A stretch of 64,000 bases of DNA from assembly GCF_044647545.1 (NCBI RefSeq), contig NZ_CP172818.1, one strand, 5' to 3'. The DNA is from Escherichia coli. GTDB lineage: Bacteria > Pseudomonadota > Gammaproteobacteria > Enterobacterales > Enterobacteriaceae. The position numbers and the translations under genes are program-made. Below the pieces are notes generated by a model. It saw only the letters and a list, made by a program, of their open reading frames with translations. It searched no databases and was not told where the DNA came from. Positions 4,449 to 59,734 of this stretch are shown piece by piece. Positions within the stretch are counted from its first letter, which is position 1. The number at the start of each line of letters is the position of its first letter.

Positions 4449-4678
4449 TCCACACCAGAGCTTTGACGACACCACTCGTTTCAATGGGGGAATTCAGTGG
4501 CATGGTGTAAAGCACAGCAAAATTGCCAATAACGAAACCGATTTTAATGTACTTATCAAAAAGCGGTCACGTTAATCTTTTCATCAATGTCGATTTCTTC
4601 GTAAAGGCTCGCGTTTTTTATGTCAGAGATTGCAAGTTGCTTGTACAGGTCAACTAAATTGATCCATAATTATTTCCG

Positions 4679-4697
4679 TTGGAATCGTGTGCTGCAC
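4679..4697 (+). repeat. 19-nt direct repeat, copy 2 (TTGGAATCGTGTGCTGCAC)
   Basis: 18 of 19 identical to copy at 4430..4448. Confidence 0.6.
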
Positions 4698-4717
4698 AAA
4701 ATTAAAGTTGTAAAGTG

Positions 4718-4750
4718 AAAACCCCCGTTCCTTACCAGTTCGGGGGTTTT
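4718..4750. terminator. Bidirectional stem-loop between shoB/ohsC region and acpS
   Basis: 10-bp perfect stem AAAACCCCCG / CGGGGGTTTT with 13-nt loop, T-rich flanks on both strands; 26 nt past acpS stop. Confidence 0.55.
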
Positions 4751-4775
4751 ACTTTATAAAGAGAACGGTATTTTT

Positions 4776-6638: not shown

Positions 6639-8251
<1,613 letters not shown>

Positions 8252-8450
8252 TCAGCACACGAAACAGACCTGATATACATGGTTCTGCTAACTGCTTCGC
8301 TGCAGTTTCAGTTTACCGGTATATGGGGACCAACGCTGTTTCGTGTGCCGTGGCAACCTGGAGGTGCCAACCTTAAACTTCGGGGGAATATTCTATACAC
8401 AACGACGGGGGATGTCGTTAGCCACGGGAGATTTATCTCATAAATAATTC

Positions 8451-9483: not shown

Positions 9484-11283
<1,800 letters not shown>

Positions 11284-11480
11284 AAAGTATGATTATTGTG
11301 CCTTAATGCCCGGTTAACCAGGCTTTTAGAAGTCGCTGTTCTGAGCTTAACGTCTGTATTAATAGAAACGCCGCATTCTACACTACAACATTGAGGCGAG
11401 GAAATGTTCATACCGTATGGATTGTGGTATCTGGAAACGTCCTCGCATTTGTTATGCAAAATGCAACAAAGCCAGTGAAA

Positions 11481-11960
11481 TCACTGGCTCGCGTCTTCCG
11501 AAGATGTTTCAAATCGCACAAGGCCAGGCGGCAATGCCACGCTTAAGATGATCGGTTGCCATTCAGACCGGGCAGCAAACTTTCGAGAGCAGCCACGTGC
11601 AATCAGGAATCCACCAACGCCACCGAGAATCGCACCGCATAATGCTGCAATATCTGAAGCAAAGAGTAGCTGAAATAGTGAAGCGATGAGGAATAGTCCC
11701 ACCAACGGCGACATATAAACCAGTAATGCGGAGCTAAGCAGGCTGCCTTCGGCGATTCCTAATTCTACTTTTTGCCCCGGCACTAACGGTTCTTCACAGG
11801 GTACGACAATGGTATGCGTGGTTTGCGGGCCAAGTTTATTCAACACGCGGCTACCGCAACCGGCGCGCGAAGCGCAGCTGCTGCATGAGGCTTTAACATC
11901 ACAACTAACCAGCGCCTGCCCGTTTTCCCAGGAGACGACGGTAGCCCACTCTTTGATCAT
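11481..11960 (-). CDS. rseC: Sigma-E regulatory protein RseC
   Basis: Track ORF 159 aa; last gene of the rpoE-rseABC cluster; 4-bp overlap with rseB. Confidence 0.85.
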   Translation of the reverse strand: MIKEWATVVSWENGQALVSCDVKASCSSCASRAGCGSRVLNKLGPQTTHTIVVPCEEPLVPGQKVELGIAEGSLLSSALLVYMSPLVGLFLIASLFQLLFASDIAALCGAILGGVGGFLIARGCSRKFAARSEWQPIILSVALPPGLVRFETSSEDASQ

Positions 11961-12913
11961 TGCGCTGCCCCGAACTTAATATTCTCGGCAATGCGTTTCG
12001 CCGTTTGCGGCGGCAGTTCACCGACAATGGTGATTTCGGCGTTATCACGTACGCTTGTACTGACGGTTCTGCGTCCGGTGCGCAACATCTGATCGGTGCT
12101 CGATGGCGTAGCGCGGTTAACGTTTACCGAGAAGCTGAATAATCCGTCGGAATAGAGACGTGATTCAATAGGCATGTTGTCCATCGTCGGTAGCGGACGT
12201 CGACTACTGGAAACTTCGCTAAAACCCTGTGGCAACCAGGTTGGCGTCCAGCTGAATTTAGCTTTTTCACCTACAGGAACAGAAAGCAACGGCGGCAAAT
12301 TTGCCTTCGCCAGCGTCTGCATACTGCTGCTGATATCCTGATTGACATTAAAAGCAATCACGCGAAATTGTTCCAGCGTTTCACCATCGCGATCAAGGAG
12401 ATCAACCCTCATCGGTAATTTCGATTCGGTGTCCATCCACACGATGTAGCTGTAGCGTGTACCATCTCGGGCAACCACGCGAATAACTTCGCAAAGACGA
12501 TCAGCAATACGCGTGCGCCCGACGGAGATAAAGTCGTAGTAAGGAGAAAGGCGTTTGAAATCGGTATAGATGAGCGATGGCAGAGAATCAACAATGTAAT
12601 CGCCATTAAGCGTGAACGGTTCAAGTCCCGGTTCAAAATAGCTGATCTCATTGCCGCGCTGTACCACTTCCCGGCGCGGGCCATCCATTTGCAACAATTG
12701 TGCAAGAGGACGGTTATCGAGGCGTGCATGTCGATAACGCAGAGACTCAACACCCTGTTTATTGATGCTGATGAATGACAGCTCGTAATTCAGTGACTGA
12801 CTGGCCAGGTTCATCTGCTGTAATAACGCCCCGGACGCGGGAGTGGCCGAGGCGTTAGCAGAGAATAACAGGCTACCTGTCACTAATGACATGGCAAACC
12901 AAAGTTGCTTCAT
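11957..12913 (-). CDS. rseB: Sigma-E regulatory protein RseB (periplasmic)
   Basis: Track ORF 318 aa with N-terminal signal peptide. Confidence 0.88.
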   Translation of the reverse strand: MKQLWFAMSLVTGSLLFSANASATPASGALLQQMNLASQSLNYELSFISINKQGVESLRYRHARLDNRPLAQLLQMDGPRREVVQRGNEISYFEPGLEPFTLNGDYIVDSLPSLIYTDFKRLSPYYDFISVGRTRIADRLCEVIRVVARDGTRYSYIVWMDTESKLPMRVDLLDRDGETLEQFRVIAFNVNQDISSSMQTLAKANLPPLLSVPVGEKAKFSWTPTWLPQGFSEVSSSRRPLPTMDNMPIESRLYSDGLFSFSVNVNRATPSSTDQMLRTGRRTVSTSVRDNAEITIVGELPPQTAKRIAENIKFGAAQ

Positions 12914-13563
12914 TACTGCGATTGCGTTCCTAAAGTTTGAATTCCTGGCACCTGTACAGCGGCTTGCTGGGTTTGCGCCTGCTCAAACTGAAGCTGTTCA
13001 GAGTGGAGTCGGCGTTGCAGTTCGTAATCCTGCAACATTGCATTAATGCGACGACGCTGCTCCTGTACCTGCTGCTGTTGACCATTGTTTGCGGTCGCTT
13101 CAGAAGGTACTCCCAGGCTTACCGGGCTGGCTTTACCCATCATCGGCAGTGTATTAAATACCGGCGTTTCGGGCTGCTGGGACGTTTCAGATTGTCCATT
13201 ATAGTGCTGGACGCCAACGATAACTGCAAGCGATACGCATGCGGCTACGCCCATTTGGGTAAGCTGTGCCGCCCACGGACGTACTTTCTGCCAGAATGGC
13301 ATTTTCTGCCATTGATGCGGCGCAGGCTGGGCTTCCGGGATCAATGTCGCCGGTTGACGTACTGGCTCTTCTTCAATGGCGGCCATCACTCGTGAAGAGA
13401 TATCGAAATGGAGCACCTCGGGAGTATCACCCCGCATTGAGTCACGGATTAAGTGATAGCTTTCCCAGGTTTTCTGCATTTCTGGGTTATGAGCCAGTTC
13501 GTTAAGCAGCTCACTATCCAGCGTTTCGCCATCCATTAAAGCGGAAAGTTGTTCTTTCTGCAT
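12913..13563 (-). CDS. rseA: Anti-sigma-E factor RseA
   Basis: Track ORF 12913..13599; product starting MQKEQLSALMDGE gives 216 aa; central transmembrane segment. Confidence 0.88.
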   Translation of the reverse strand: MQKEQLSALMDGETLDSELLNELAHNPEMQKTWESYHLIRDSMRGDTPEVLHFDISSRVMAAIEEEPVRQPATLIPEAQPAPHQWQKMPFWQKVRPWAAQLTQMGVAACVSLAVIVGVQHYNGQSETSQQPETPVFNTLPMMGKASPVSLGVPSEATANNGQQQQVQEQRRRINAMLQDYELQRRLHSEQLQFEQAQTQQAAVQVPGIQTLGTQSQ

Positions 13564-13595: not shown

Positions 13596-14171
13596 TCAAC
13601 GCCTGATAAGCGGTTGAACTTTGTTATCAATAGCTTCCCTCGCTCGGAAGATACGTGAACGCACCGTACCTACCGGACAATCCATGATAGCGGCTATCTC
13701 TTCATAGCTCAGGCCATCCAGCTCCCGCAAGGTTATTGCCATGCGTAAATCTTCCGGGAGGGACTCAATAGTTCGGAAAACTATCTGTCTCAGTTCTTCT
13801 GACAACATTAAGTTCTCAGGGTTCGAAATTTCTTTCAACGCGCCGCCACTTTCGAAGTTTTCAGCTTCAATGGCATCCACATCACTGGAAGGTGGACGAC
13901 GCCCCTGAGCAACCAGGTAATTTTTCGCTGTATTTACAGCAATCCGATACAGCCATGTATAAAAAGCGCTATCTCCCCGGAACGAATCCAGCGCACGATA
14001 GGCTTTAATAAAAGCTTCTTGTACCACATCGGGAACATCACCCGACGGCACATAGCGGGAAACCAGACTCGCCACTTTATGCTGATAGCGCACTACCAGT
14101 AAGTTAAAGGCTTTCTGATCTCCCTTCTGGACCCGTTCAACCAGGACCTGGTCCGTTAACTGCTCGCTCAT
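13596..14171 (-). CDS. rpoE: ECF RNA polymerase sigma factor sigma-E
   Basis: Track ORF 13596..14204; product starting MSEQLTDQVLVERVQKGDQKAF gives 191 aa. Confidence 0.92.
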   Translation of the reverse strand: MSEQLTDQVLVERVQKGDQKAFNLLVVRYQHKVASLVSRYVPSGDVPDVVQEAFIKAYRALDSFRGDSAFYTWLYRIAVNTAKNYLVAQGRRPPSSDVDAIEAENFESGGALKEISNPENLMLSEELRQIVFRTIESLPEDLRMAITLRELDGLSYEEIAAIMDCPVGTVRSRIFRAREAIDNKVQPLIRR

Positions 14172-14253
14172 CCGAGGTAAAGTCTCCCCAAACCAAATTT
14201 CCACGCGCTATCGAAACGCCACTCCATTAGCTGCAATTTGAGCAAGCAAAGGG

Positions 14254-14281
14254 TTAGAGTGTCTCGTTTTTGTAAAGTTCC
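14254..14281 (-). promoter_or_regulatory. Sigma-E-type promoter upstream of rpoE (autoregulated)
   Basis: Minus strand reads GGAACTT, 16-nt spacer, TCTAA; matches sigma-E consensus GGAACTT / TCTGA; about 85 nt upstream of rpoE ATG. Confidence 0.5.
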
Positions 14282-14569
14282 GTAACGCATCTGTTTTTGT
14301 TTGTCATGCTGTAGACGGATCATTATCTATCATTATAAGTCTACAGAATCTGAACATCGCATTATCTGTGTAGAAATGCCCATTTAACTGCCTGAAGAGT
14401 AACCCAACGGCCTTTTTATTTCACCACCTAATCCTCCACCAGCCAGTAACTTCTCTTTTTCTCGCCGCCCTGCGTCAGCGTGTTTAGCAACTGTAACAAA
14501 TATTAAAATAGCAGGTGTTTATTCGCACAACATGATGCTATGCTGACCAAACCATGTTTAGTAAATTAA

Positions 14570-16923
<2,354 letters not shown>

Positions 16924-18420: not shown

Positions 18421-19300
18421 ATCCCGGCAAAAAACACTCTTCAACACACTGAATAAAAATGTGCATCGCCGGGCTAACCGCTTTTCCGGCATGGTGAGCG
18501 CACATTGCCGTAATCGTCTGCGACTGTTCGCCAAAAGGCAATTCGATTAATTCGCCACTCGCAAGTTCATTTGCCACTGTAAAGCGCGGCAGGTAACTGA
18601 CCCCGATATTTGCCGCGACACAACGCTTGATGCTTTCGATACTTATAAGCTCAATGGTGTTTTCCACCGTGATCCGTCGCTGGCGCAGCGTGCTCTCAAA
18701 TATCTGGCGGAAGACACATTGCGGTTCATTGATAATAAAACTACAGGCGTTATGTCTTCCCTGCTCAGTAAAATCGACATCTGCAATTTGCGGTGAAGCC
18801 ACCAGCACCAGCGATTGTTCACCCAACTCTCGCCGGTTCAGAGCATTATCATTCCCTACGCGATAAAAAACCCCGACATCGGCCTCATCATTCAGTAGCG
18901 CATCACGGATCACGTAACAGTTCAGAGACTGCAACGATAAACGCACTTTTGGTGCGCGTTGCCGAAAACGCTGCAACACCTGCGGCATTCGGTAAGAGAG
19001 CAACGTTTCGCCTGAAACAACGCGTAGTTCCCCGTCCGGATCCGACTCTTTTTTGGCAGCCTCACGAAGGGTATCCATCACTCTGGTGAGTTCATAAATG
19101 TGCGGCAGCAGCTTTTTTCCTTCGCGGGTAAGGCACATTCGTCGACCAATTTTCTCAAATAACTGGACTGAGAACTCCTGCTCAAGCTGCTGAATATGAA
19201 AAGTCACCGTCGATTGTGTACAGCACAATTTTTGCGAAGCTCGCAAAAAGGAACCCTCTTCCACCACGGTTTTAAGTGTAATAAAACGGCGCAGATCCAT
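18419..19300 (-). CDS. yfiE: LysR-family transcriptional regulator
   Basis: Track ORF 18419..19345; internal Met at 19300 gives 293 aa; N-terminal HTH plus substrate-binding domain. Confidence 0.8.
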   Translation of the reverse strand: MDLRRFITLKTVVEEGSFLRASQKLCCTQSTVTFHIQQLEQEFSVQLFEKIGRRMCLTREGKKLLPHIYELTRVMDTLREAAKKESDPDGELRVVSGETLLSYRMPQVLQRFRQRAPKVRLSLQSLNCYVIRDALLNDEADVGVFYRVGNDNALNRRELGEQSLVLVASPQIADVDFTEQGRHNACSFIINEPQCVFRQIFESTLRQRRITVENTIELISIESIKRCVAANIGVSYLPRFTVANELASGELIELPFGEQSQTITAMCAHHAGKAVSPAMHIFIQCVEECFLPG

Positions 19301-30047: not shown

Positions 30048-30167
30048 ATGCCTGGCAGTTCCCTACTCTCGCATGGGGAGACCCCACACTACCATCGGCG
30101 CTACGGCGTTTCACTTCTGAGTTCGGCATGGGGTCAGGTGGGACCACCGCGCTAAGGCCGCCAGGCA
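30048..30167 (-). rRNA. rrfG: 5S ribosomal RNA
   Basis: Exactly 120 nt; reverse complement begins TGCCTGGCGGC and ends CAGGCAT. Confidence 0.97.
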
Positions 30168-30259
30168 AATTCTGTTTCATCAGACCGCTTCTGCGTTCTG
30201 ATTTAATCTGTATCAGGCTGAAAATCTTCTCTCTTCCGCCAAAACATCTTCGGCGTTGT

Positions 30260-33163
<2,904 letters not shown>

Positions 33164-33356
33164 TCACAACCCGAAGATGTTTCTTTCGACTCATCATCGT
33201 GTTGCGAAAATTTGAGAGACTCACGAACAACTTTCGTTGTTCAGTGTTTCAATTTTCAGCTTGATCCAGATTTTTAAAGAGCAAATATCTCAAACATCAC
33301 CCGAAGATGAGCTTTGAGATATTAAGGCAGGTGACTTTCACTCACAAACCAGCAAG

Positions 33357-33432
33357 TGGCGTCCCCTAGGGGATTCGAACCCCTGTTACCGCCGTGAAAG
33401 GGCGGTGTCCTGGGCCTCTAGACGAAGGGGAC
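33357..33432 (-). tRNA. gltW: tRNA-Glu (anticodon UUC) in the 16S-23S spacer
   Basis: 76 nt; reverse complement reads GTCCCCTTCGTCTAGAGGCCCAGGACACCGCCCTTTCACGGCGGTAACAGGGGTTCGAATCCCCTAGGGGACGCCA. Confidence 0.97.
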
Positions 33433-33507
33433 GTGTCGCAAGACGCCTTGCTTTTCACTTTCTATCAGACAATCTGTGTGAGCACTTCAAAGTACGCTTC
33501 TTTAAGG

Positions 33508-35049
<1,542 letters not shown>

Positions 35050-35492: not shown

Positions 35493-38066
35493 TTACTGGA
35501 CGGCGACAATCCGGTCTTCATTAACTTCCAGGCGAATCACTTTACCCGGAACCAATTCACCAGACAGTATTTGCTGTGCCAGCGGGTTTTCGATCTGCTG
35601 CTGAATTGCACGTTTCAGAGGACGTGCACCATAGACCGGATCGTAACCGTTCTCGCTCAGCAGTTTCAGCGCCTCGTCAGAAATGTGGATTTCATAACCA
35701 CGTTCTTCCAGACGTTTATACAGACGTTTCAACTGAATCTGCGCAATCGACGCAATGTGCTGTTCACCCAGCGGATGGAAGACCACCACTTCATCGATAC
35801 GGTTAATGAATTCCGGACGGAAGTTATGGCTTACCACACCGAGCACCAGCTCTTTCATGTGCGCATAATCCAGTTCACCGAAGCGTTCCTGAATCAAATC
35901 GGAACCGAGGTTAGAGGTCATAATGACAACCGTATTACGGAAGTCGACCGTTCTCCCCTGCCCGTCAGTCAGACGCCCATCATCCAATACCTGCAACAGA
36001 ATGTTGAAGACATCCGGATGCGCTTTTTCCACTTCATCCAGCAGGATGACGGAATACGGACGACGACGCACCGCTTCGGTCAGGTAGCCACCTTCTTCAT
36101 AACCGACATATCCCGGAGGCGCACCAACCAGACGAGACACCGAGTGTTTCTCCATAAACTCGGACATATCGATACGGACCATCGCCTCGTCGCTATCAAA
36201 CATAAAGTTCGCCAGCGCCTTACAAAGCTCAGTTTTCCCCACACCCGTTGGGCCGAGGAACAGGAATGAACCAATCGGGCGATTTGGATCCGCCAGCCCC
36301 GCACGGCTACGACGAATAGCGTTAGATACCGCATCAACCGCTTCGTTCTGACCAATAACGCGATGGTGCAGTTCTTGCTCCATACGCAGCAGTTTTTCGC
36401 GCTCGCTTTCCATCATGCGAGAAACCGGAATCCCCGTCCAACGCGCCAGCACTTCAGCAATTTCGGCATCGGTCACTTTATTACGCAACAGACGCATAGT
36501 TTTGCCTTCGAGCTGCGTTGCGGCTTCCAGTTGCTTTTCCAGTTCCGGGATTTTGCCGTATTGCAGTTCAGACATCCGCGCCAGGTCACCCACACGGCGA
36601 GCCTGTTCAATAGCGATTTTCGCCTGTTCCAGTTCCGCTTTAATGGTCTGCGTACCAGAAAGCGATGCTTTCTCTGCTTTCCACTCTTCTTCTAACTCGG
36701 AGTACTGACGTTCTTTGTCGCTCAGTTCTTCGTTGAGCATATCCAGACGTTTTTTACTGGCTTCATCAGACTCTTTCATTAACGCCTGTTGTTCCAGTTT
36801 GAGCTGGATGATACGGCGATCGAGTCGGTCGAGTTCTTCTGGTTTTGAGTCAATCTGCATACGAATGCTGGATGCTGCCTCATCGATCAGGTCGATGGCT
36901 TTATCTGGCAGCTGGCGGTCAGCAATGTAGCGATGAGACAACGTCGCCGCTGCAACAATTGCCGGGTCAGTAATTTGCACATGGTGGTGCAGCTCGTAAC
37001 GTTCTTTCAGGCCACGTAGAATCGCAATGGTATCTTCAACAGAAGGCTCGGCAACAAACACTTTCTGGAAACGACGTTCCAGCGCAGCATCTTTTTCGAT
37101 GTACTGGCGATATTCGTCAAGCGTCGTGGCACCTACGCAGTGCAATTCACCACGCGCCAGCGCCGGTTTCAGCATGTTTCCGGCGTCCATTGCGCCATCG
37201 GCTTTACCCGCGCCGACCATGGTATGTAATTCGTCGATAAACAGGATGACGTTGCCTTCCTGTTTGGCAAGATCGTTAAGTACGCCTTTTAAACGTTCTT
37301 CAAACTCACCGCGATATTTCGCCCCAGCCACCAGCGCGCCCATATCCAGCGCCAGTACGCGGCGGCCTTTCAACCCTTCGGGCACTTCGCCGTTGATAAT
37401 ACGCTGCGCCAGACCTTCAACGATGGCAGTCTTACCGACGCCTGGTTCACCAATCAGTACCGGGTTATTTTTAGTACGACGTTGCAGCACCTGAATGGTA
37501 CGGCGAATTTCTTCATCACGACCAATCACCGGATCGAGTTTACCCTGTTCGGCTCGTTCGGTAAGGTCGATGGTATATTTTTTCAAAGCCTGACGTTGGT
37601 CTTCAGCACCTTGATCGTTCACGCTTTCACCTCCACGCATTTGTTCAATCGCTTGAGTAATGTTGGCGGTGGTCGCCCCTGCTGCTTTCAGGATGTCGGC
37701 CAGCGTGCCGCGAGACTCAAGTGCCGCCAGAACGAACAGTTCTGACGAGATAAAGTTATCACCACGTTTTTGCGCCAGCTTGTCGCAAAGATTAAGAACG
37801 CGCACCAGATCCTGTGATGGCTGGACATCACCACCAGTACCTTCAACCTGCGGTAAACGATTTAATGCCTGATTGATATCTGTGCGCAACTGGCCAGCAT
37901 TTATGCCAGCGGATGTTAATAAAGGACTAACCGAACCCCCTTCCTGATTCAGCAGGGCGCTCATTAAATGAAGTGGTTCGATGAATTGGTTGTCGTGCCC
38001 GAGTGCAAGTGATTGGGCATCGGCAAGAGCAAGCTGGAATTTATTAGTAAGACGATCCAGACGCAT
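35493..38066 (-). CDS. clpB: Chaperone ClpB (Hsp100 disaggregase, two AAA+ modules)
   Basis: Track ORF 35493..38078; ATG at 38066 with GGAGG upstream gives 857 aa starting [14 protein letters not shown]; Walker A GEPGVGKT and GPTGVGKT. Confidence 0.95.
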
Positions 38067-38105
38067 AACTCCTCCCATAACGGATCAAAGTTGCTACTGG
38101 AGATT

Positions 38106-38133
38106 AAATGAGGTCATCCCTCAATTATTCAAG
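38106..38133 (-). promoter_or_regulatory. Sigma-32 (heat-shock) type promoter for clpB
   Basis: Minus strand CTTGAA, 13-nt spacer, CCTCATTT; resembles sigma-32 consensus CTTGAAA / CCCCATNT. Confidence 0.5.
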
Positions 38134-38195
38134 GTTATTGACCAGATTAATGTGAAAAGAAAATCACGCGTACCGGATCGTCTTGATTCTTTAGG

Positions 38196-38927: not shown

Positions 38928-39904
38928 AACCAGTCCACTTCATCTTTATGCTCTTCGAAATCGGCGCGCATCACCTCAATCAGCTCCACCATATCTTGTG
39001 GAATAGGCGCATGCCATTCCATTTCGATACCGGAGATCGGGTGATAAAGACGCAGCATGGTTGCATGAAGCGCCTGGCGGTCAAATTTACGCAGCGTGGA
39101 GATAAACGCTTCCGAAGCACCTTTTGGCGGACGCGGACGGCCACCATAAACCGGATCGCCCACCAGCGGATGAGTGATATGGGCCATATGCACGCGGATC
39201 TGGTGCGTACGTCCAGTTTCCAGACGCAACCGCAGACGCGTGTGCACACGGAAGTGTTCCATGATGCGATAGTGAGTCACCGCTGGTTTGCCCATCGGAT
39301 GCACCGCCATATGGGTACGTTTGGTCGGGTGGCGGCTGATTGGTTCATCTACTGTACCGCCAGCGGTCATATGACCAATTGCCACCGCTTCATACTCACG
39401 AGTCATTTCACGCCTTTGCAAAGATTCGACTAAACGCGTCTGAGCCGGAACGGTTTTTGCCACAACCATCAGGCCAGTGGTGTCTTTATCCAGACGATGG
39501 ACGATGCCTGCACGCGGTACATCGGCAATGGGCGGATAATAATGAAGCAATGCATTCAGTACCGTGCCATCCGGGTTACCCGCGCCAGGATGTACCACCA
39601 GGTCGCGCGGTTTATTAATGACGATGATATCGTCATCTTCATAGACGATATCCAGCGGGATATCCTGCGGTTCAAAACGCGCTTCTTCTTCAATCTCAGC
39701 GTTGATGGCCACCTGCTCGCCACCCAATACTTTTTCTTTCGGCTTATCACAAACTTTGCCGTTAACCAGCACGCGCTGGTCGAGGATCCATTCTTTTATC
39801 CGCGAACGTGAATAATCCGGGAACATTTCGGCCAAAGCCTGATCTAAGCGTTGACCGAGTTGGTTTTCGGACACCGTTGCAGTGAGCTGTACTCGTTGTG
39901 CCAT
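38924..39904 (-). CDS. rluD: 23S rRNA pseudouridine synthase D
   Basis: Track ORF 326 aa; S4-like N-terminus and catalytic motif HRLDKDTTG. Confidence 0.93.
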   Translation of the reverse strand: MAQRVQLTATVSENQLGQRLDQALAEMFPDYSRSRIKEWILDQRVLVNGKVCDKPKEKVLGGEQVAINAEIEEEARFEPQDIPLDIVYEDDDIIVINKPRDLVVHPGAGNPDGTVLNALLHYYPPIADVPRAGIVHRLDKDTTGLMVVAKTVPAQTRLVESLQRREMTREYEAVAIGHMTAGGTVDEPISRHPTKRTHMAVHPMGKPAVTHYRIMEHFRVHTRLRLRLETGRTHQIRVHMAHITHPLVGDPVYGGRPRPPKGASEAFISTLRKFDRQALHATMLRLYHPISGIEMEWHAPIPQDMVELIEVMRADFEEHKDEVDWL

Positions 39905-40038: not shown

Positions 40039-40776
40039 ATGACGCGCATGAAATATCTGGTGGCAGCCGCCACACTAAGCCTGTTTTTGGCGGGTTGCTC
40101 GGGGTCAAAGGAAGAAGTACCTGATAATCCGCCAAATGAAATTTACGCGACTGCACAACAAAAGCTGCAGGACGGTAACTGGAGACAGGCAATAACGCAA
40201 CTGGAAGCGTTAGATAATCGCTATCCGTTTGGTCCGTATTCGCAGCAGGTGCAGCTGGATCTCATCTACGCCTACTATAAAAACGCCGATCTGCCGTTAG
40301 CACAGGCTGCCATCGATCGTTTTATTCGCCTCAACCCGACCCATCCGAATATCGATTATGTCATGTACATGCGTGGCCTGACCAATATGGCGCTGGATGA
40401 CAGTGCGCTGCAAGGGTTCTTTGGCGTTGACCGTAGCGATCGCGATCCTCAACATGCTCGAGCTGCGTTTAGTGACTTTTCCAAACTGGTGCGCGGCTAT
40501 CCAAACAGCCAATACACCACTGATGCAACCAAACGTCTGGTGTTCCTGAAAGATCGTCTGGCGAAATATGAATACTCCGTTGCAGAGTACTACACCGAAC
40601 GTGGCGCATGGGTTGCCGTCGTCAACCGCGTCGAAGGCATGCTGCGTGACTACCCGGATACCCAAGCTACGCGTGATGCGCTGCCGCTGATGGAAAATGC
40701 TTACCGCCAGATGCAGATGAACGCTCAGGCTGAAAAAGTCGCAAAAATTATTGCCGCTAACAGCAGCAACACTTAA
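40039..40776 (+). CDS. bamD: Outer membrane protein assembly factor BamD (lipoprotein, TPR)
   Basis: Track ORF 245 aa; lipobox LAGCSG. Confidence 0.92.
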
Positions 40777-40796: not shown

Positions 40797-40823
40797 CGGC
40801 AGCCCTTGAGCTGCCGTTTTTTT
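40797..40823 (+). terminator. Rho-independent terminator after bamD
   Basis: Stem CGGCAGC / GCTGCCG with 6-nt loop followed by TTTTTTT. Confidence 0.7.
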
Positions 40824-40992
40824 ATTCTGTTAGTTGTGAAACTGAAGCGATTTAGTCACTATCGATCTCATCAAATATGGCTCGCTTTGAGATATTCCTC
40901 AAGTAAAAAAACACCTCTTCCTGCGATTTCTCACAAAAAAGATTCGTTGACAAAAAGTGACAAAATTATGAGATTTCCATCACACATTTTGA

Positions 40993-41388
<396 letters not shown>

Positions 41389-41412
41389 TCCTTTATATTG
41401 AGTGTATCGCCA

Positions 41413-41436
41413 ACGCGCCTTCGGGCGCGTTTTTTG
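41413..41436 (+). terminator. Rho-independent terminator after raiA
   Basis: Stem ACGCGCC / GGCGCGT with TTCG loop followed by TTTTTT. Confidence 0.7.
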
Positions 41437-41491
41437 TTGACAGCGTGAAAACAGTACGGGTACTGTACTAAAGTCACTTAAGGAAACAAAC

Positions 41492-41539
41492 ATGAAACAC
41501 ACACCGTTTTTCTTCGCATTCTTTTTTACCTTCCCCTGA
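41492..41539 (+). CDS. pheL: pheA leader peptide (Phe-rich, 15 aa)
   Basis: Hand translation gives MKHTPFFFAFFFTFP then stop; seven Phe codons; absent from ORF track. Confidence 0.9.
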   Translation: MKHTPFFFAFFFTFP

Positions 41540-41585
41540 ATGGGAGGCGTTTCGTCGTGTGAAACAGAATGCGAAGACGAACAAT

Positions 41586-41615
41586 AAGGCCTCCCAAATC
41601 GGGGGGCCTTTTTTA
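41586..41615 (+). promoter_or_regulatory. pheA attenuator terminator hairpin
   Basis: Stem GGCCTCCC / GGGGGGCC (one G-U pair) followed by TTTTTTT, between pheL and pheA. Confidence 0.75.
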
Positions 41616-41637
41616 TTGATAACAAAAAGGCAACACT

Positions 41638-59371: not shown

Positions 59372-59734
59372 GGGGCTGATTCTGGATTCGACGGGATTTG
59401 CGAAACCCAAGGTGCATGCCGAGGGGCGGTTGGCCTCGTAAAAAGCCGCAAAAAATAGTCGCAAACGACGAAAACTACGCTTTAGCAGCTTAATAACCTG
59501 CTTAGAGCCCTCTCTCCCTAGCCTCCGCTCTTAGGACGGGGATCAAGAGAGGTCAAACCCAAAAGAGATCGCGTGGAAGCCCTGCCTGGGGTTGAAGCGT
59601 TAAAACTTAATCAGGCTAGTTTGTTAGTGGCGTGTCCGTCCGCAGCTGGCAAGCGAATGTAAAGACTGACTAAGCATGTAGTACCGAGGACGTAGGAATT
59701 TCGGACGCGGGTTCAACTCCCGCCAGCTCCACCA
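59372..59734 (+). ncRNA. ssrA: Transfer-messenger RNA (tmRNA)
   Basis: 363 nt from GGGGCTGATTCTGGATTCGACGGG to GGGTTCAACTCCCGCCAGCTCCACCA; internal frame GCAAACGACGAAAACTACGCTTTAGCAGCTTAA encodes tag ANDENYALAA; TATACT -10-like hexamer upstream. Confidence 0.97.

What the first reader, a model, noticed from the sequence alone, without database searches (positions are those of the whole stretch)
14254..14281. Sigma-E-type promoter upstream of rpoE
GGAACTT-16-TCTAA upstream of rpoE matches the sigma-E consensus. It fits positive autoregulation of the rpoE-rseABC operon.
Basis: partly seen in the sequence, partly recalled or inferred. Interest (0 to 1): 0.25.

Follow-up and report, generated by a model that had tools for sequence, protein, structure and literature searches.

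The report
Known sigma-E self-activating promoter of rpoE

Summary
GGAACTT-16 nt-TCTAA lies at 14281..14254 on the minus strand, 83-110 nt upstream of the rpoE start codon (14171). It is the only exact match in the window, against 0.01 expected by chance.

The window is E. coli. It is identical to K-12 MG1655 from -410 to +21 of rpoE apart from one base at -352, so the K-12 experiments apply directly. The site is the σE-dependent promoter originally called rpoE P2 and now rpoE P6. Published evidence includes:
- a mapped start at -75, which is 7-8 nt downstream of TCTAA;
- transposon insertions in the spacer that abolish stress induction;
- an in-vitro EσE SELEX peak and σE ChIP regions over the site.

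My own comparison of 102 distinct Enterobacterales upstream regions gives a clear footprint. GAACTT is invariant and the -10 is 95% conserved. The spacer is always 16 nt long but has 56 different sequences. An invariant block begins at the predicted +1.

- the promoter lies inside the leader-peptide gene rseD;
- it is one of six rpoE promoters;
- a second σE promoter (rseA P3) sits inside rpoE.

Verdict: interpretation supported, already known, low interest.

The parts
14275..14281 (-). -35 element GGAACTT (perfect match to the σE -35 consensus)
   Evidence: GAACTT is 100% conserved and the first G 88% conserved in 102 distinct Enterobacterales upstream regions. Consensus taken from Rhodius 2006.
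14259..14274 (-). 16-nt spacer TACAAAAACGAGACAC
   Evidence: The length is 16 nt in 102 of 102 orthologous sequences, with 56 distinct sequences and a mean major-base frequency of 0.63. 16 nt is the strongly preferred σE spacer. Published Tn10 and Tn10dCam insertions fall here.
14254..14258 (-). -10 element TCTAA (consensus TCAAA; 4 of 5 match)
   Evidence: Among orthologues: TCTAA 78, TCCAA 16, TCAAA 4. T, C and the final A are 100% conserved. A Tn10 at -90 described as '3 nt upstream of the -10 rpoEP6 element' maps the -10 start to -87 = 14258.
14248..14253 (-). Discriminator CCCTTT (6 nt, variable between species)
   Evidence: Mean major-base frequency 0.51. The length is 6 nt in 101 of 102 sequences. 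A 5/6-nt discriminator is preferred by σE.
14246..14247 (-). Transcription start: published -75 (C, 14246); adjacent invariant purine G at -76 (14247)
   Evidence: The P6 start at -75 is cited from Klein 2016 in PMC8103513. G at -76 is 99% conserved and its only variant is A. σE starts prefer a purine.
14240..14247 (-). Invariant initial transcribed block GCTTGCTC
   Evidence: 99-100% conserved in 102 sequences. It pairs with GAGCGAGC at the rpoE start codon in the MFE and centroid folds, but the fold is no better than shuffles, z = -0.33. Its function is inferred, not shown.
14294..14298 (-). Conserved A-tract (AAAAA) at about -51 to -47 from the start, UP-element-like
   Evidence: 82-99% conserved. 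Rhodius 2006 reports conserved A/T-rich peaks at -48/-49 and -57/-58 of σE promoters. The assignment is an inference.
14168..14323 (-). rseD, the 51-codon rpoE leader-peptide ORF; its stop overlaps the rpoE ATG (ATGA) and it contains the promoter
   Evidence: RefSeq annotation and ORF list. The -35 falls on codons 15-17, the -10 on codons 22-24 and the start on codon 26 (read directly from the sequence).
13596..14171 (-). rpoE (σE) coding sequence, the gene driven by the promoter
13791..13825 (-). rseA P3, the second σE promoter, inside rpoE: cGAACcc-16-TCAGA-6 nt-G(+1 at 13791)
   Evidence: The geometry found places +1 exactly 228 nt upstream of the rseA ATG (13563). That is the published start site (PMC8595263; Rhodius 2006). 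The choice of hexamers is my inference.
11481..13563 (-). rseA (12913..13563), rseB (11957..12913) and rseC (11481..11960): anti-σ and regulators co-transcribed downstream

Best explanation
The motif is the σE-dependent, gene-proximal promoter of rpoE (historically rpoE P2, now rpoE P6). RNA polymerase carrying σE binds GGAACTT through σ region 4 and TCTAA through σ region 2 across a fixed 16-nt spacer. It starts transcription 7-8 nt downstream of TCTAA, at 14246/14247, which gives a 75-76-nt leader followed by rpoE-rseA-rseB-rseC. When envelope stress triggers proteolysis of the anti-σ RseA, the freed σE transcribes its own gene. This is positive autoregulation, and it amplifies the response. 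The same transcript, together with the internal σE promoter rseA P3, re-makes RseA. That is the negative feedback that shuts the response off. Sequence, position, uniqueness and conservation are shown here. σE dependence, the mapped start and the role in induction come from published K-12 experiments on identical sequence.
For: - Exact, unique match: 1 found against 0.01 expected, and the only 12/12 site in the window.
- The site lies 83-110 nt upstream of the rpoE ATG on the correct strand.
- The sequence is identical to MG1655 from -410 to +21 except at -352. It is 100% identical over the 65-nt core in 5,254 of 5,425 complete E. coli genomes.
- Phylogenetic footprint in 102 distinct Enterobacterales upstream regions: mean conservation 0.98 for the -35, 0.95 for the -10, 0.63 for the spacer and 0.51 for the discriminator. 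The spacer is always 16 nt with 56 different sequences. The motif-versus-spacer contrast is the best of 172 possible placements.
- The motif persists in genera where the rseD reading frame does not cover it.
- It matches the published σE consensus GGAACTT-16-TCAAA with a 5/6-nt discriminator and a purine start.
- Literature on the identical K-12 sequence: the -10 of rpoEP6 starts 3 nt downstream of -90. The P6 start is at -75, P6 equals the old P2, and it is autoregulated. A Tn10dCam between the -35 and -10 blocks stress induction of the σE response (measured with an rpoH P3-lacZ reporter) without killing the cell. Two conserved σE promoters provide self-activation plus RseA feedback.
- In-vitro EσE genomic SELEX peak at 2,708,134 in the rpoE/nadB spacer, and σE ChIP regions spanning the site.
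- Internal controls: the second-best site in the window precedes bamD, and rseA P3 shows the same 16-nt/6-nt geometry at its published start.
Against: - The -10 differs from the TCAAA consensus at one base, although TCTAA is the majority form among orthologues.
- The published start (-75) is a C with a 7-nt discriminator, not the preferred 5/6 nt and purine. The invariant G is one base upstream, so the two differ by 1 nt.
- I could not read the primary mapping papers (Rouvière 1995, Raina 1995, Klein 2016, Yakhnin 2017), which are not held. The start site and σE dependence therefore rest on secondary citations.
- No genome-wide TSS table that I could open contained the site.
- The SELEX signal is modest: 6.3, against 55 for rybB.
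- Converting U00096.2 to U00096.3 coordinates uses an offset of 1,978 that I recalled from memory. It was checked only roughly, against the yfhB/yfhH spacer.
Confidence: 0.97

Rival explanations
1. The match is a chance resemblance to the σE consensus with no promoter function. rpoE would be transcribed only from the upstream σ70/σ54/σS promoters.
For: Short bipartite motifs with one or two mismatches are common: 4 found against 3.9 expected at up to 2 mismatches. Five other rpoE promoters exist upstream.
Against: The exact match is expected 0.01 times. It is conserved as a bipartite footprint with a fixed 16-nt variable spacer across 102 sequences. Published insertions, start mapping, SELEX and ChIP all place σE activity here.
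Confidence: 0.01
2. The conservation of GGAACTT and TCTAA reflects selection on the RseD leader peptide (Gly15-Thr16-Leu17 and Thr22-Leu23), not on a promoter.
For: The motif lies wholly inside the annotated rseD ORF. RseD homologues in Escherichia, Citrobacter and Salmonella keep GTL...TL...CLL.
Against: Conservation is not codon-periodic. All 16 spacer positions, which cover five codons, vary freely, while both hexamers are fixed at all three codon positions. In many genera (for example Enterobacter, Klebsiella, Pantoea, Sodalis) the first in-frame ATG lies downstream of the -35, or even of the start site, yet GAACTT remains 100% conserved.
Confidence: 0.01
3. The site is a real promoter but is used mainly by a different holoenzyme (σ70, σS or σ32). 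In that case σE dependence would be indirect.
For: Some σE-regulon genes have overlapping promoters. 36 of 136 EσE SELEX sites overlap Eσ32 sites. σ70 and σS ChIP regions also cover the rpoE/nadB spacer.
Against: No σ70-like hexamer pair is found in 14100-14650. The conserved bases are exactly those of the σE consensus. Reconstituted EσE alone binds here. The σ70 and σS ChIP signal is accounted for by the published P1-P5 promoters further upstream.
Confidence: 0.01

Closest known systems
E. coli K-12 rpoE P2 (Rouvière 1995; Raina 1995), renamed rpoE P6 (Klein 2016)
   Same: It is the same locus and, across the whole promoter, the same sequence: identical from -410 to +21 except one base at -352. 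The -10 position, the start at -75 and the σE autoregulation all match.
   Different: Nothing of substance. The window comes from a non-K-12 E. coli strain.
rseA P3, the second σE promoter of the same operon (Rhodius 2006)
   Same: 16-nt spacer, 6-nt discriminator, G start and a TC-purine-rich -10 (TCAGA). It lies in the same window at 13825..13791.
   Different: Its -35 is weak (cGAACcc). It lies inside the rpoE coding sequence and drives only rseABC, so it feeds the negative arm and not σE synthesis.
Other E. coli σE promoters (rpoH P3, degP, micA, rybB, bamD/yfiO)
   Same: All follow the GGAACTT-16-TCAAA architecture with an A/T-rich upstream region. The bamD candidate in this window is GGAACAT-16-TCTAA.
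   Different: Those promoters drive effector genes or sRNAs. This one drives the σ factor itself and closes the positive loop.
Autoregulated ECF σ/anti-σ operons in general (e.g. P. aeruginosa algU-mucABCD, Salmonella rpoE)
   Same: An ECF σ gene is preceded by a promoter it recognises itself and followed by its anti-σ gene. An AAC core in the -35 is typical of ECF promoters (my own knowledge; also the general description in PMC8103513).
   Different: The -10 sequences and stress inputs differ between species. Rhodius 2006 notes that the E. coli model fails in Pseudomonas, Vibrio and Shewanella.

Membership tests
σE (RpoE, σ24)-dependent promoter of Enterobacteriaceae | -35 element matching GGAACTT | tested here: met
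   7 of 7 match at 14281..14275. GAACTT is invariant in 102 orthologous regions.
σE (RpoE, σ24)-dependent promoter of Enterobacteriaceae | Spacer of 15-19 nt between the -35 and -10, with 16 strongly preferred | tested here: met
   16 nt here and in 102 of 102 orthologues. Rule taken.
σE (RpoE, σ24)-dependent promoter of Enterobacteriaceae | -10 element matching TCAAA | tested here: met
   TCTAA matches 4 of 5. T, C and the last A are invariant, and the third base varies T/C/A among orthologues.
σE (RpoE, σ24)-dependent promoter of Enterobacteriaceae | 5/6-nt discriminator followed by a purine start | tested here: inconclusive
   An invariant G lies 6 nt after TCTAA. The published start is -75, a C one base further on. 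The two agree within 1 nt, and I could not read the primary mapping data.
σE (RpoE, σ24)-dependent promoter of Enterobacteriaceae | A/T-rich UP-like sequence upstream of the -35 (peaks near -48/-49 and -57/-58) | tested here: met
   A conserved AAAAA lies at about -51 to -47 from the start (window 14298..14294). The feature is defined. It is only weakly diagnostic.
σE (RpoE, σ24)-dependent promoter of Enterobacteriaceae | Transcription depends on EσE in vitro and in vivo | not testable with these tools
   This rests on the literature only, for identical K-12 sequence: transcribed by EσE, insertion in the spacer blocks induction, EσE SELEX peak and σE ChIP.
Positively autoregulated ECF σ / anti-σ operon | A promoter recognised by the σ factor lies upstream of that σ factor's own gene, on the same strand | tested here: met
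   The motif is 83-110 nt upstream of the rpoE ATG on the minus strand.
Positively autoregulated ECF σ / anti-σ operon | The anti-σ gene is co-transcribed immediately downstream | tested here: met
   rseA starts 33 nt after the rpoE stop, and rseB and rseC overlap or abut. No terminator-like site is predicted in 14100-14650. Co-transcription itself comes from the literature.

The most novel reading that the evidence does not exclude
The σE promoter starts transcription at rseD codon 26, so P6 mRNAs cannot make full-length RseD and should escape RseD-rpoE translational coupling. The upstream promoters differ: published P5 starts 1 nt before the rseD ATG and would give a near-leaderless rseD message. 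Stress-induced and basal rpoE mRNAs could therefore be translated and controlled differently. In addition, the invariant 5' end of the P6 mRNA (GCUUGCUC) may pair with the rpoE start-codon region (GAGCGAGC) as a P6-specific translational or stability element. These are inferences from geometry and one fold. They may already be discussed in Yakhnin 2017, which I could not read.
Probability: 0.2. Interest if true: 0.3.

Novelty: already known. Interest (0 to 1): 0.06.

Why it matters
This promoter closes the positive feedback loop of the essential σE envelope-stress response. It has been a textbook example since 1995 and is used routinely as a reporter (rpoEP6-lacZ). Confirming it here adds no new biology. 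It does show that the first-stage reader can recognise a real σE promoter from sequence alone. It also gives a clean calibration example of a bipartite phylogenetic footprint: fixed hexamers, fixed spacer length and free spacer sequence. The only open point is a modest one, namely how starting inside rseD affects translation of the stress-induced rpoE mRNA.

Tried and rejected
- Primary papers were not held: Klein 2016 JBC, Yakhnin 2017, Rouvière 1995 and Raina 1995. I used later open-access papers that cite them.
- Rhodius 2006 has no supplements held, and its Table 1 text is not stored, so I could not read their listed rpoE promoter sequence and start.
- Genome-wide TSS supplements gave nothing. 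Kim 2012 has no entry near 2,708,10x-2,708,12x in the stored, possibly truncated, files. Conway 2014 has no supplements held.
- The generic σ70/terminator scan of 14100-14650 found nothing. It therefore says nothing about the published upstream promoters P1-P5, which have weak or non-σ70 elements.
- Allowing two mismatches in the pattern gave chance-level counts, so I dropped it as evidence.
- A looser GAACTT-15/17-TC.[AG]A scan added only a site inside yfiE (18568..18542). I treat that as chance.
- Folding the P6 leader gave an MFE no better than shuffles (z = -0.33), so I do not claim a structured leader. Covariation cannot be tested because both arms of the candidate helix are invariant in the sequences collected.
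- A short RseD isoform starting at Met33 on P6 mRNA looks unlikely. That ATG is present in only about 60% of species and has no Shine-Dalgarno sequence.
- My quick search for the bamE start failed because I guessed the wrong sequence. I did not pursue it.

Full report
**What is in the sequence.** On the + strand, 14254-14281 reads TTAGAGTGTCTCGTTTTTGTAAAGTTCC. The reverse complement is GGAACTT-TACAAAAACGAGACAC-TCTAA, which is 7 + 16 + 5 nt. The motif is therefore on the minus strand, something the finding did not say.

The flanking ORFs on that strand are rseD (14168..14323), rpoE (13596..14171), rseA, rseB, rseC and lepA. nadB diverges on the + strand from 14579. The motif spans -110 to -83 relative to the A of the rpoE ATG.

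**Is it more than chance?**
- The exact pattern occurs once in the 64-kb window on both strands, against 0.01 expected from dinucleotide-preserving shuffles.
- With two mismatches allowed the count is at chance level, 4 found against 3.9 expected. Only the exact match carries information.
- In a consensus scan with 15-17 nt spacers it is the only 12/12 site.
- The runner-up is GGAACAT-16-TCTAA at 39820-39847 (+). It lies 192 nt upstream of bamD (yfiO), a core σE-regulon gene according to Rhodius 2006. That is a useful internal positive control.

**Identity of the locus.**
- The region matches 5,425 of 5,426 complete E. coli genomes, always once and always chromosomal.
- From -410 to +21 of rpoE the window is identical to K-12 MG1655 except for one base at -352.
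- The 65-nt promoter core is 100% identical in 5,254 of 5,425 genomes.
- Experiments done on K-12 therefore apply directly to this sequence.

**Independent comparative test.** I made one DNA-pattern scan of the reference-genome collection, using a degenerate back-translation of the RpoE N-terminus. It returned 109 Enterobacterales loci. After extracting 200 nt upstream of each rpoE ATG and removing duplicates, 102 distinct sequences remained. In the MAFFT alignment:
- GAACTT is conserved in 102 of 102 sequences. The first G is conserved in 88%, and the 12 exceptions read TGAACTT.
- The -10 is TCTAA in 78, TCCAA in 16 and TCAAA in 4. T, C and the final A are invariant.
- The spacer is exactly 16 nt in all 102 sequences, yet it has 56 different sequences (mean major-base frequency 0.63).
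- The discriminator is 6 nt in 101 of 102 and is poorly conserved (0.51).
- An invariant block, GCTTGCTC, begins at -76. The only variant at -76 is G to A.
- The contrast between hexamer and spacer conservation is the largest of all 172 possible placements of such a mask in the 200-nt region.

This is the expected signature of a bipartite σ-factor binding site.

**Could the conservation be a coding constraint?** It is not explained by rseD. All 16 spacer positions vary regardless of codon phase. In many genera the first in-frame ATG lies downstream of the -35, or even of the start site, while the hexamers persist.

**Fit to the σE rule.** Rhodius et al. 2006 (PMC1312014) mapped 28 starts and derived GGAACTT and TCAAA with a strongly preferred 16-nt spacer. 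They also found a 5/6-nt discriminator, a purine start and A/T-rich peaks near -48/-49 and -57/-58. The site here compares as follows:
- It has a perfect -35.
- It has a 16-nt spacer.
- Its -10 matches at 4 of 5 positions.
- An invariant G lies 6 nt after the -10.
- A conserved A-tract lies at about -51 to -47 from that G.

**Published experiments on this exact sequence.**
- Klein and Raina's group describe a Tn10 at -90 from the rpoE ATG as '3 nt upstream of the -10 rpoEP6 promoter element'. They call P6 the most proximal promoter, transcribed by EσE (PMC7461557). Position -90 is window 14261, exactly 3 nt upstream of the T of TCTAA (14258).
- rpoE has six promoters with starts at -381, -327 (P2 and P3 share this start), -218, -153 and -75. 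P6 (-75) is the original P2 and is positively autoregulated by σE (PMC8103513 and PMC8745692, citing Klein 2016). Position -75 is window 14246, which is 8 nt after TCTAA and next to the invariant G at 14247.
- Gibson et al. 2010 isolated a Tn10dCam between the -35 and -10 of this promoter. It abolishes induction of the σE response by the OMP-mimic peptide but leaves cells viable (PMC2909356).
- rpoEP6-lacZ is used as a standard reporter of σE activity (PMC12652820).
[quoted passage not shown] These give positive autoregulation plus negative feedback through RseA.
- Genomic SELEX with reconstituted EσE alone gives a peak at 2,708,134 in the rpoE/nadB spacer (PMC5493296, Table 5).
- σE ChIP regions SigE_38 (2,708,009-2,708,609) and SigE_40 (2,707,554-2,708,154) cover the site (PMC3923258, Table S2).

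With the U00096.3-to-U00096.2 offset of 1,978 at this position, the motif is 2,708,117-2,708,144. The SELEX peak falls inside it, and SigE_40 also covers rseA P3. I recalled the offset from memory. It is consistent with the yfhB/yfhH SELEX peak landing in that spacer at window position about 2779.

**Second σE promoter as a control.** The published rseA P3 start is 228 nt upstream of the rseA ATG (PMC8595263), which is window 13791. Reading upstream from there gives cGAACcc-16 nt-TCAGA-6 nt-G. That is the same 16/6 geometry with a weaker -35. The hexamer assignment is my inference.

**Mechanism.** EσE recognises the two hexamers and initiates at 14246/14247. The transcript has a 75-76-nt leader followed by rpoE-rseABC. 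Release of σE from RseA by regulated proteolysis raises transcription of rpoE itself, which is the positive loop. It also raises transcription of rseA, from both P6 and rseA P3, which is the negative loop. Sequence, geometry and conservation are shown here. σE dependence and the physiological role come from the literature cited above.

- The strand is minus.
- The promoter lies inside rseD, the 51-codon leader ORF annotated in RefSeq. London 2021 likewise says the promoters lie 'upstream of, or within' rseD. The operon is now written rseD-rpoE-rseABC.
- This is one of six rpoE promoters.
- A second σE promoter exists inside rpoE.

**Things that did not help.** Several primary papers and TSS supplements were not available. 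The generic σ70 scan found nothing in the intergenic region. Rfam has no family over the leader. The P6 leader does not fold better than shuffles, z = -0.33.

**Residual open point.**
- P6 transcripts begin at rseD codon 26, so they lack the rseD start codon.
- The published P5 start (-153, window 14324) is 1 nt before the rseD ATG, with a perfect TATAAT 7 nt upstream. P5 mRNA would therefore be nearly leaderless for rseD.
- The invariant 5' block GCUUGCUC of P6 mRNA pairs with GAGCGAGC at the rpoE start codon in both the MFE and centroid structures.
- Whether basal and stress-induced rpoE mRNAs are translated differently is an inference I could not test. It may already be covered in Yakhnin 2017.

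**Verdict.** The feature is already known (rpoE P2/P6) and is of low interest.

Noticed in passing
window 14168-14323 (-), rseD: The σE promoter lies wholly inside the rseD leader-peptide ORF. The -35 is Gly15-Thr16-Leu17, the -10 is Thr22-Leu23 and the start block is Cys26-Leu27-Leu28. These are the residues that look conserved in RseD homologues. The full 51-54-codon ORF is seen only in Escherichia, Citrobacter and Salmonella-like genomes. In other genera the first in-frame ATG gives 18-36 codons, and only the C-terminal ...EWRF..AW..GLGR.YLG part is shared.
   Followed up: partly
window 14240-14247 (-) and 14162-14169 (-): The first 8 nt of the P6 transcript (GCUUGCUC) are invariant in 102 species-level sequences. 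They are complementary to GAGCGAGC at rpoE codons 1-3. The helix appears in the MFE and centroid folds, but the fold is no better than shuffles (z = -0.33), and no covariation is available because both arms are invariant.
   Followed up: partly
window 14324 and 14332-14337 (-): The published rpoE P5 start (-153) falls 1 nt upstream of the rseD ATG (14323). A perfect TATAAT lies 7 nt upstream of it. P5 mRNA would therefore be essentially leaderless for rseD.
   Followed up: no
window 13791-13825 (-): rseA P3, the second σE promoter, lies inside rpoE. It reads cGAACcc-16-TCAGA-6-G, with +1 exactly at the published position 228 nt upstream of the rseA ATG.
   Followed up: yes
window 39820-39847 (+): The second-best σE-like site in the window is GGAACAT-16-TCTAA. 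It lies inside the 5' end of rluD on the opposite strand, 192 nt upstream of the bamD (yfiO) ATG at 40039. It is a plausible σE promoter for bamD, a known core-regulon gene.
   Followed up: partly
window 11165-11996 (+): Strong Rfam match (511 bits) to AsrC, an antisense RNA of rseC described in Salmonella Typhi as a positive regulator of rpoE-rseABC. It spans rseC and the rseC-lepA spacer on the opposite strand. Because it is antisense to conserved coding sequence, the match may simply reflect rseC conservation.
   Followed up: no
window ~40800-41450 compared with L113 8893-10239: The best-matching genome (FDAARGOS_497) carries a 1.45-kb IS4 between bamD and raiA that the window lacks. The Phe leader is at 41491 in the window, against the 42944 expected from that genome. 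The window therefore comes from a different E. coli strain.
   Followed up: partly
window 18542-18568 (-): TGAACTT-15-TCGAA lies inside the yfiE coding sequence. It is a σE-like match that I take to be chance.
   Followed up: no
window 4678-4755, 8167-8381, 30050-35049, 38047-38185, 41491-41616, 59372-59734: Other known RNA elements found by Rfam: ohsC (next to shoB), the rncO leader, an rrn operon (5S, 23S, a tRNA annotated as tRNA-Glu in the matching genome, 16S), RyfD, the pheL leader and tmRNA (ssrA). All are as expected for this E. coli region.
   Followed up: no
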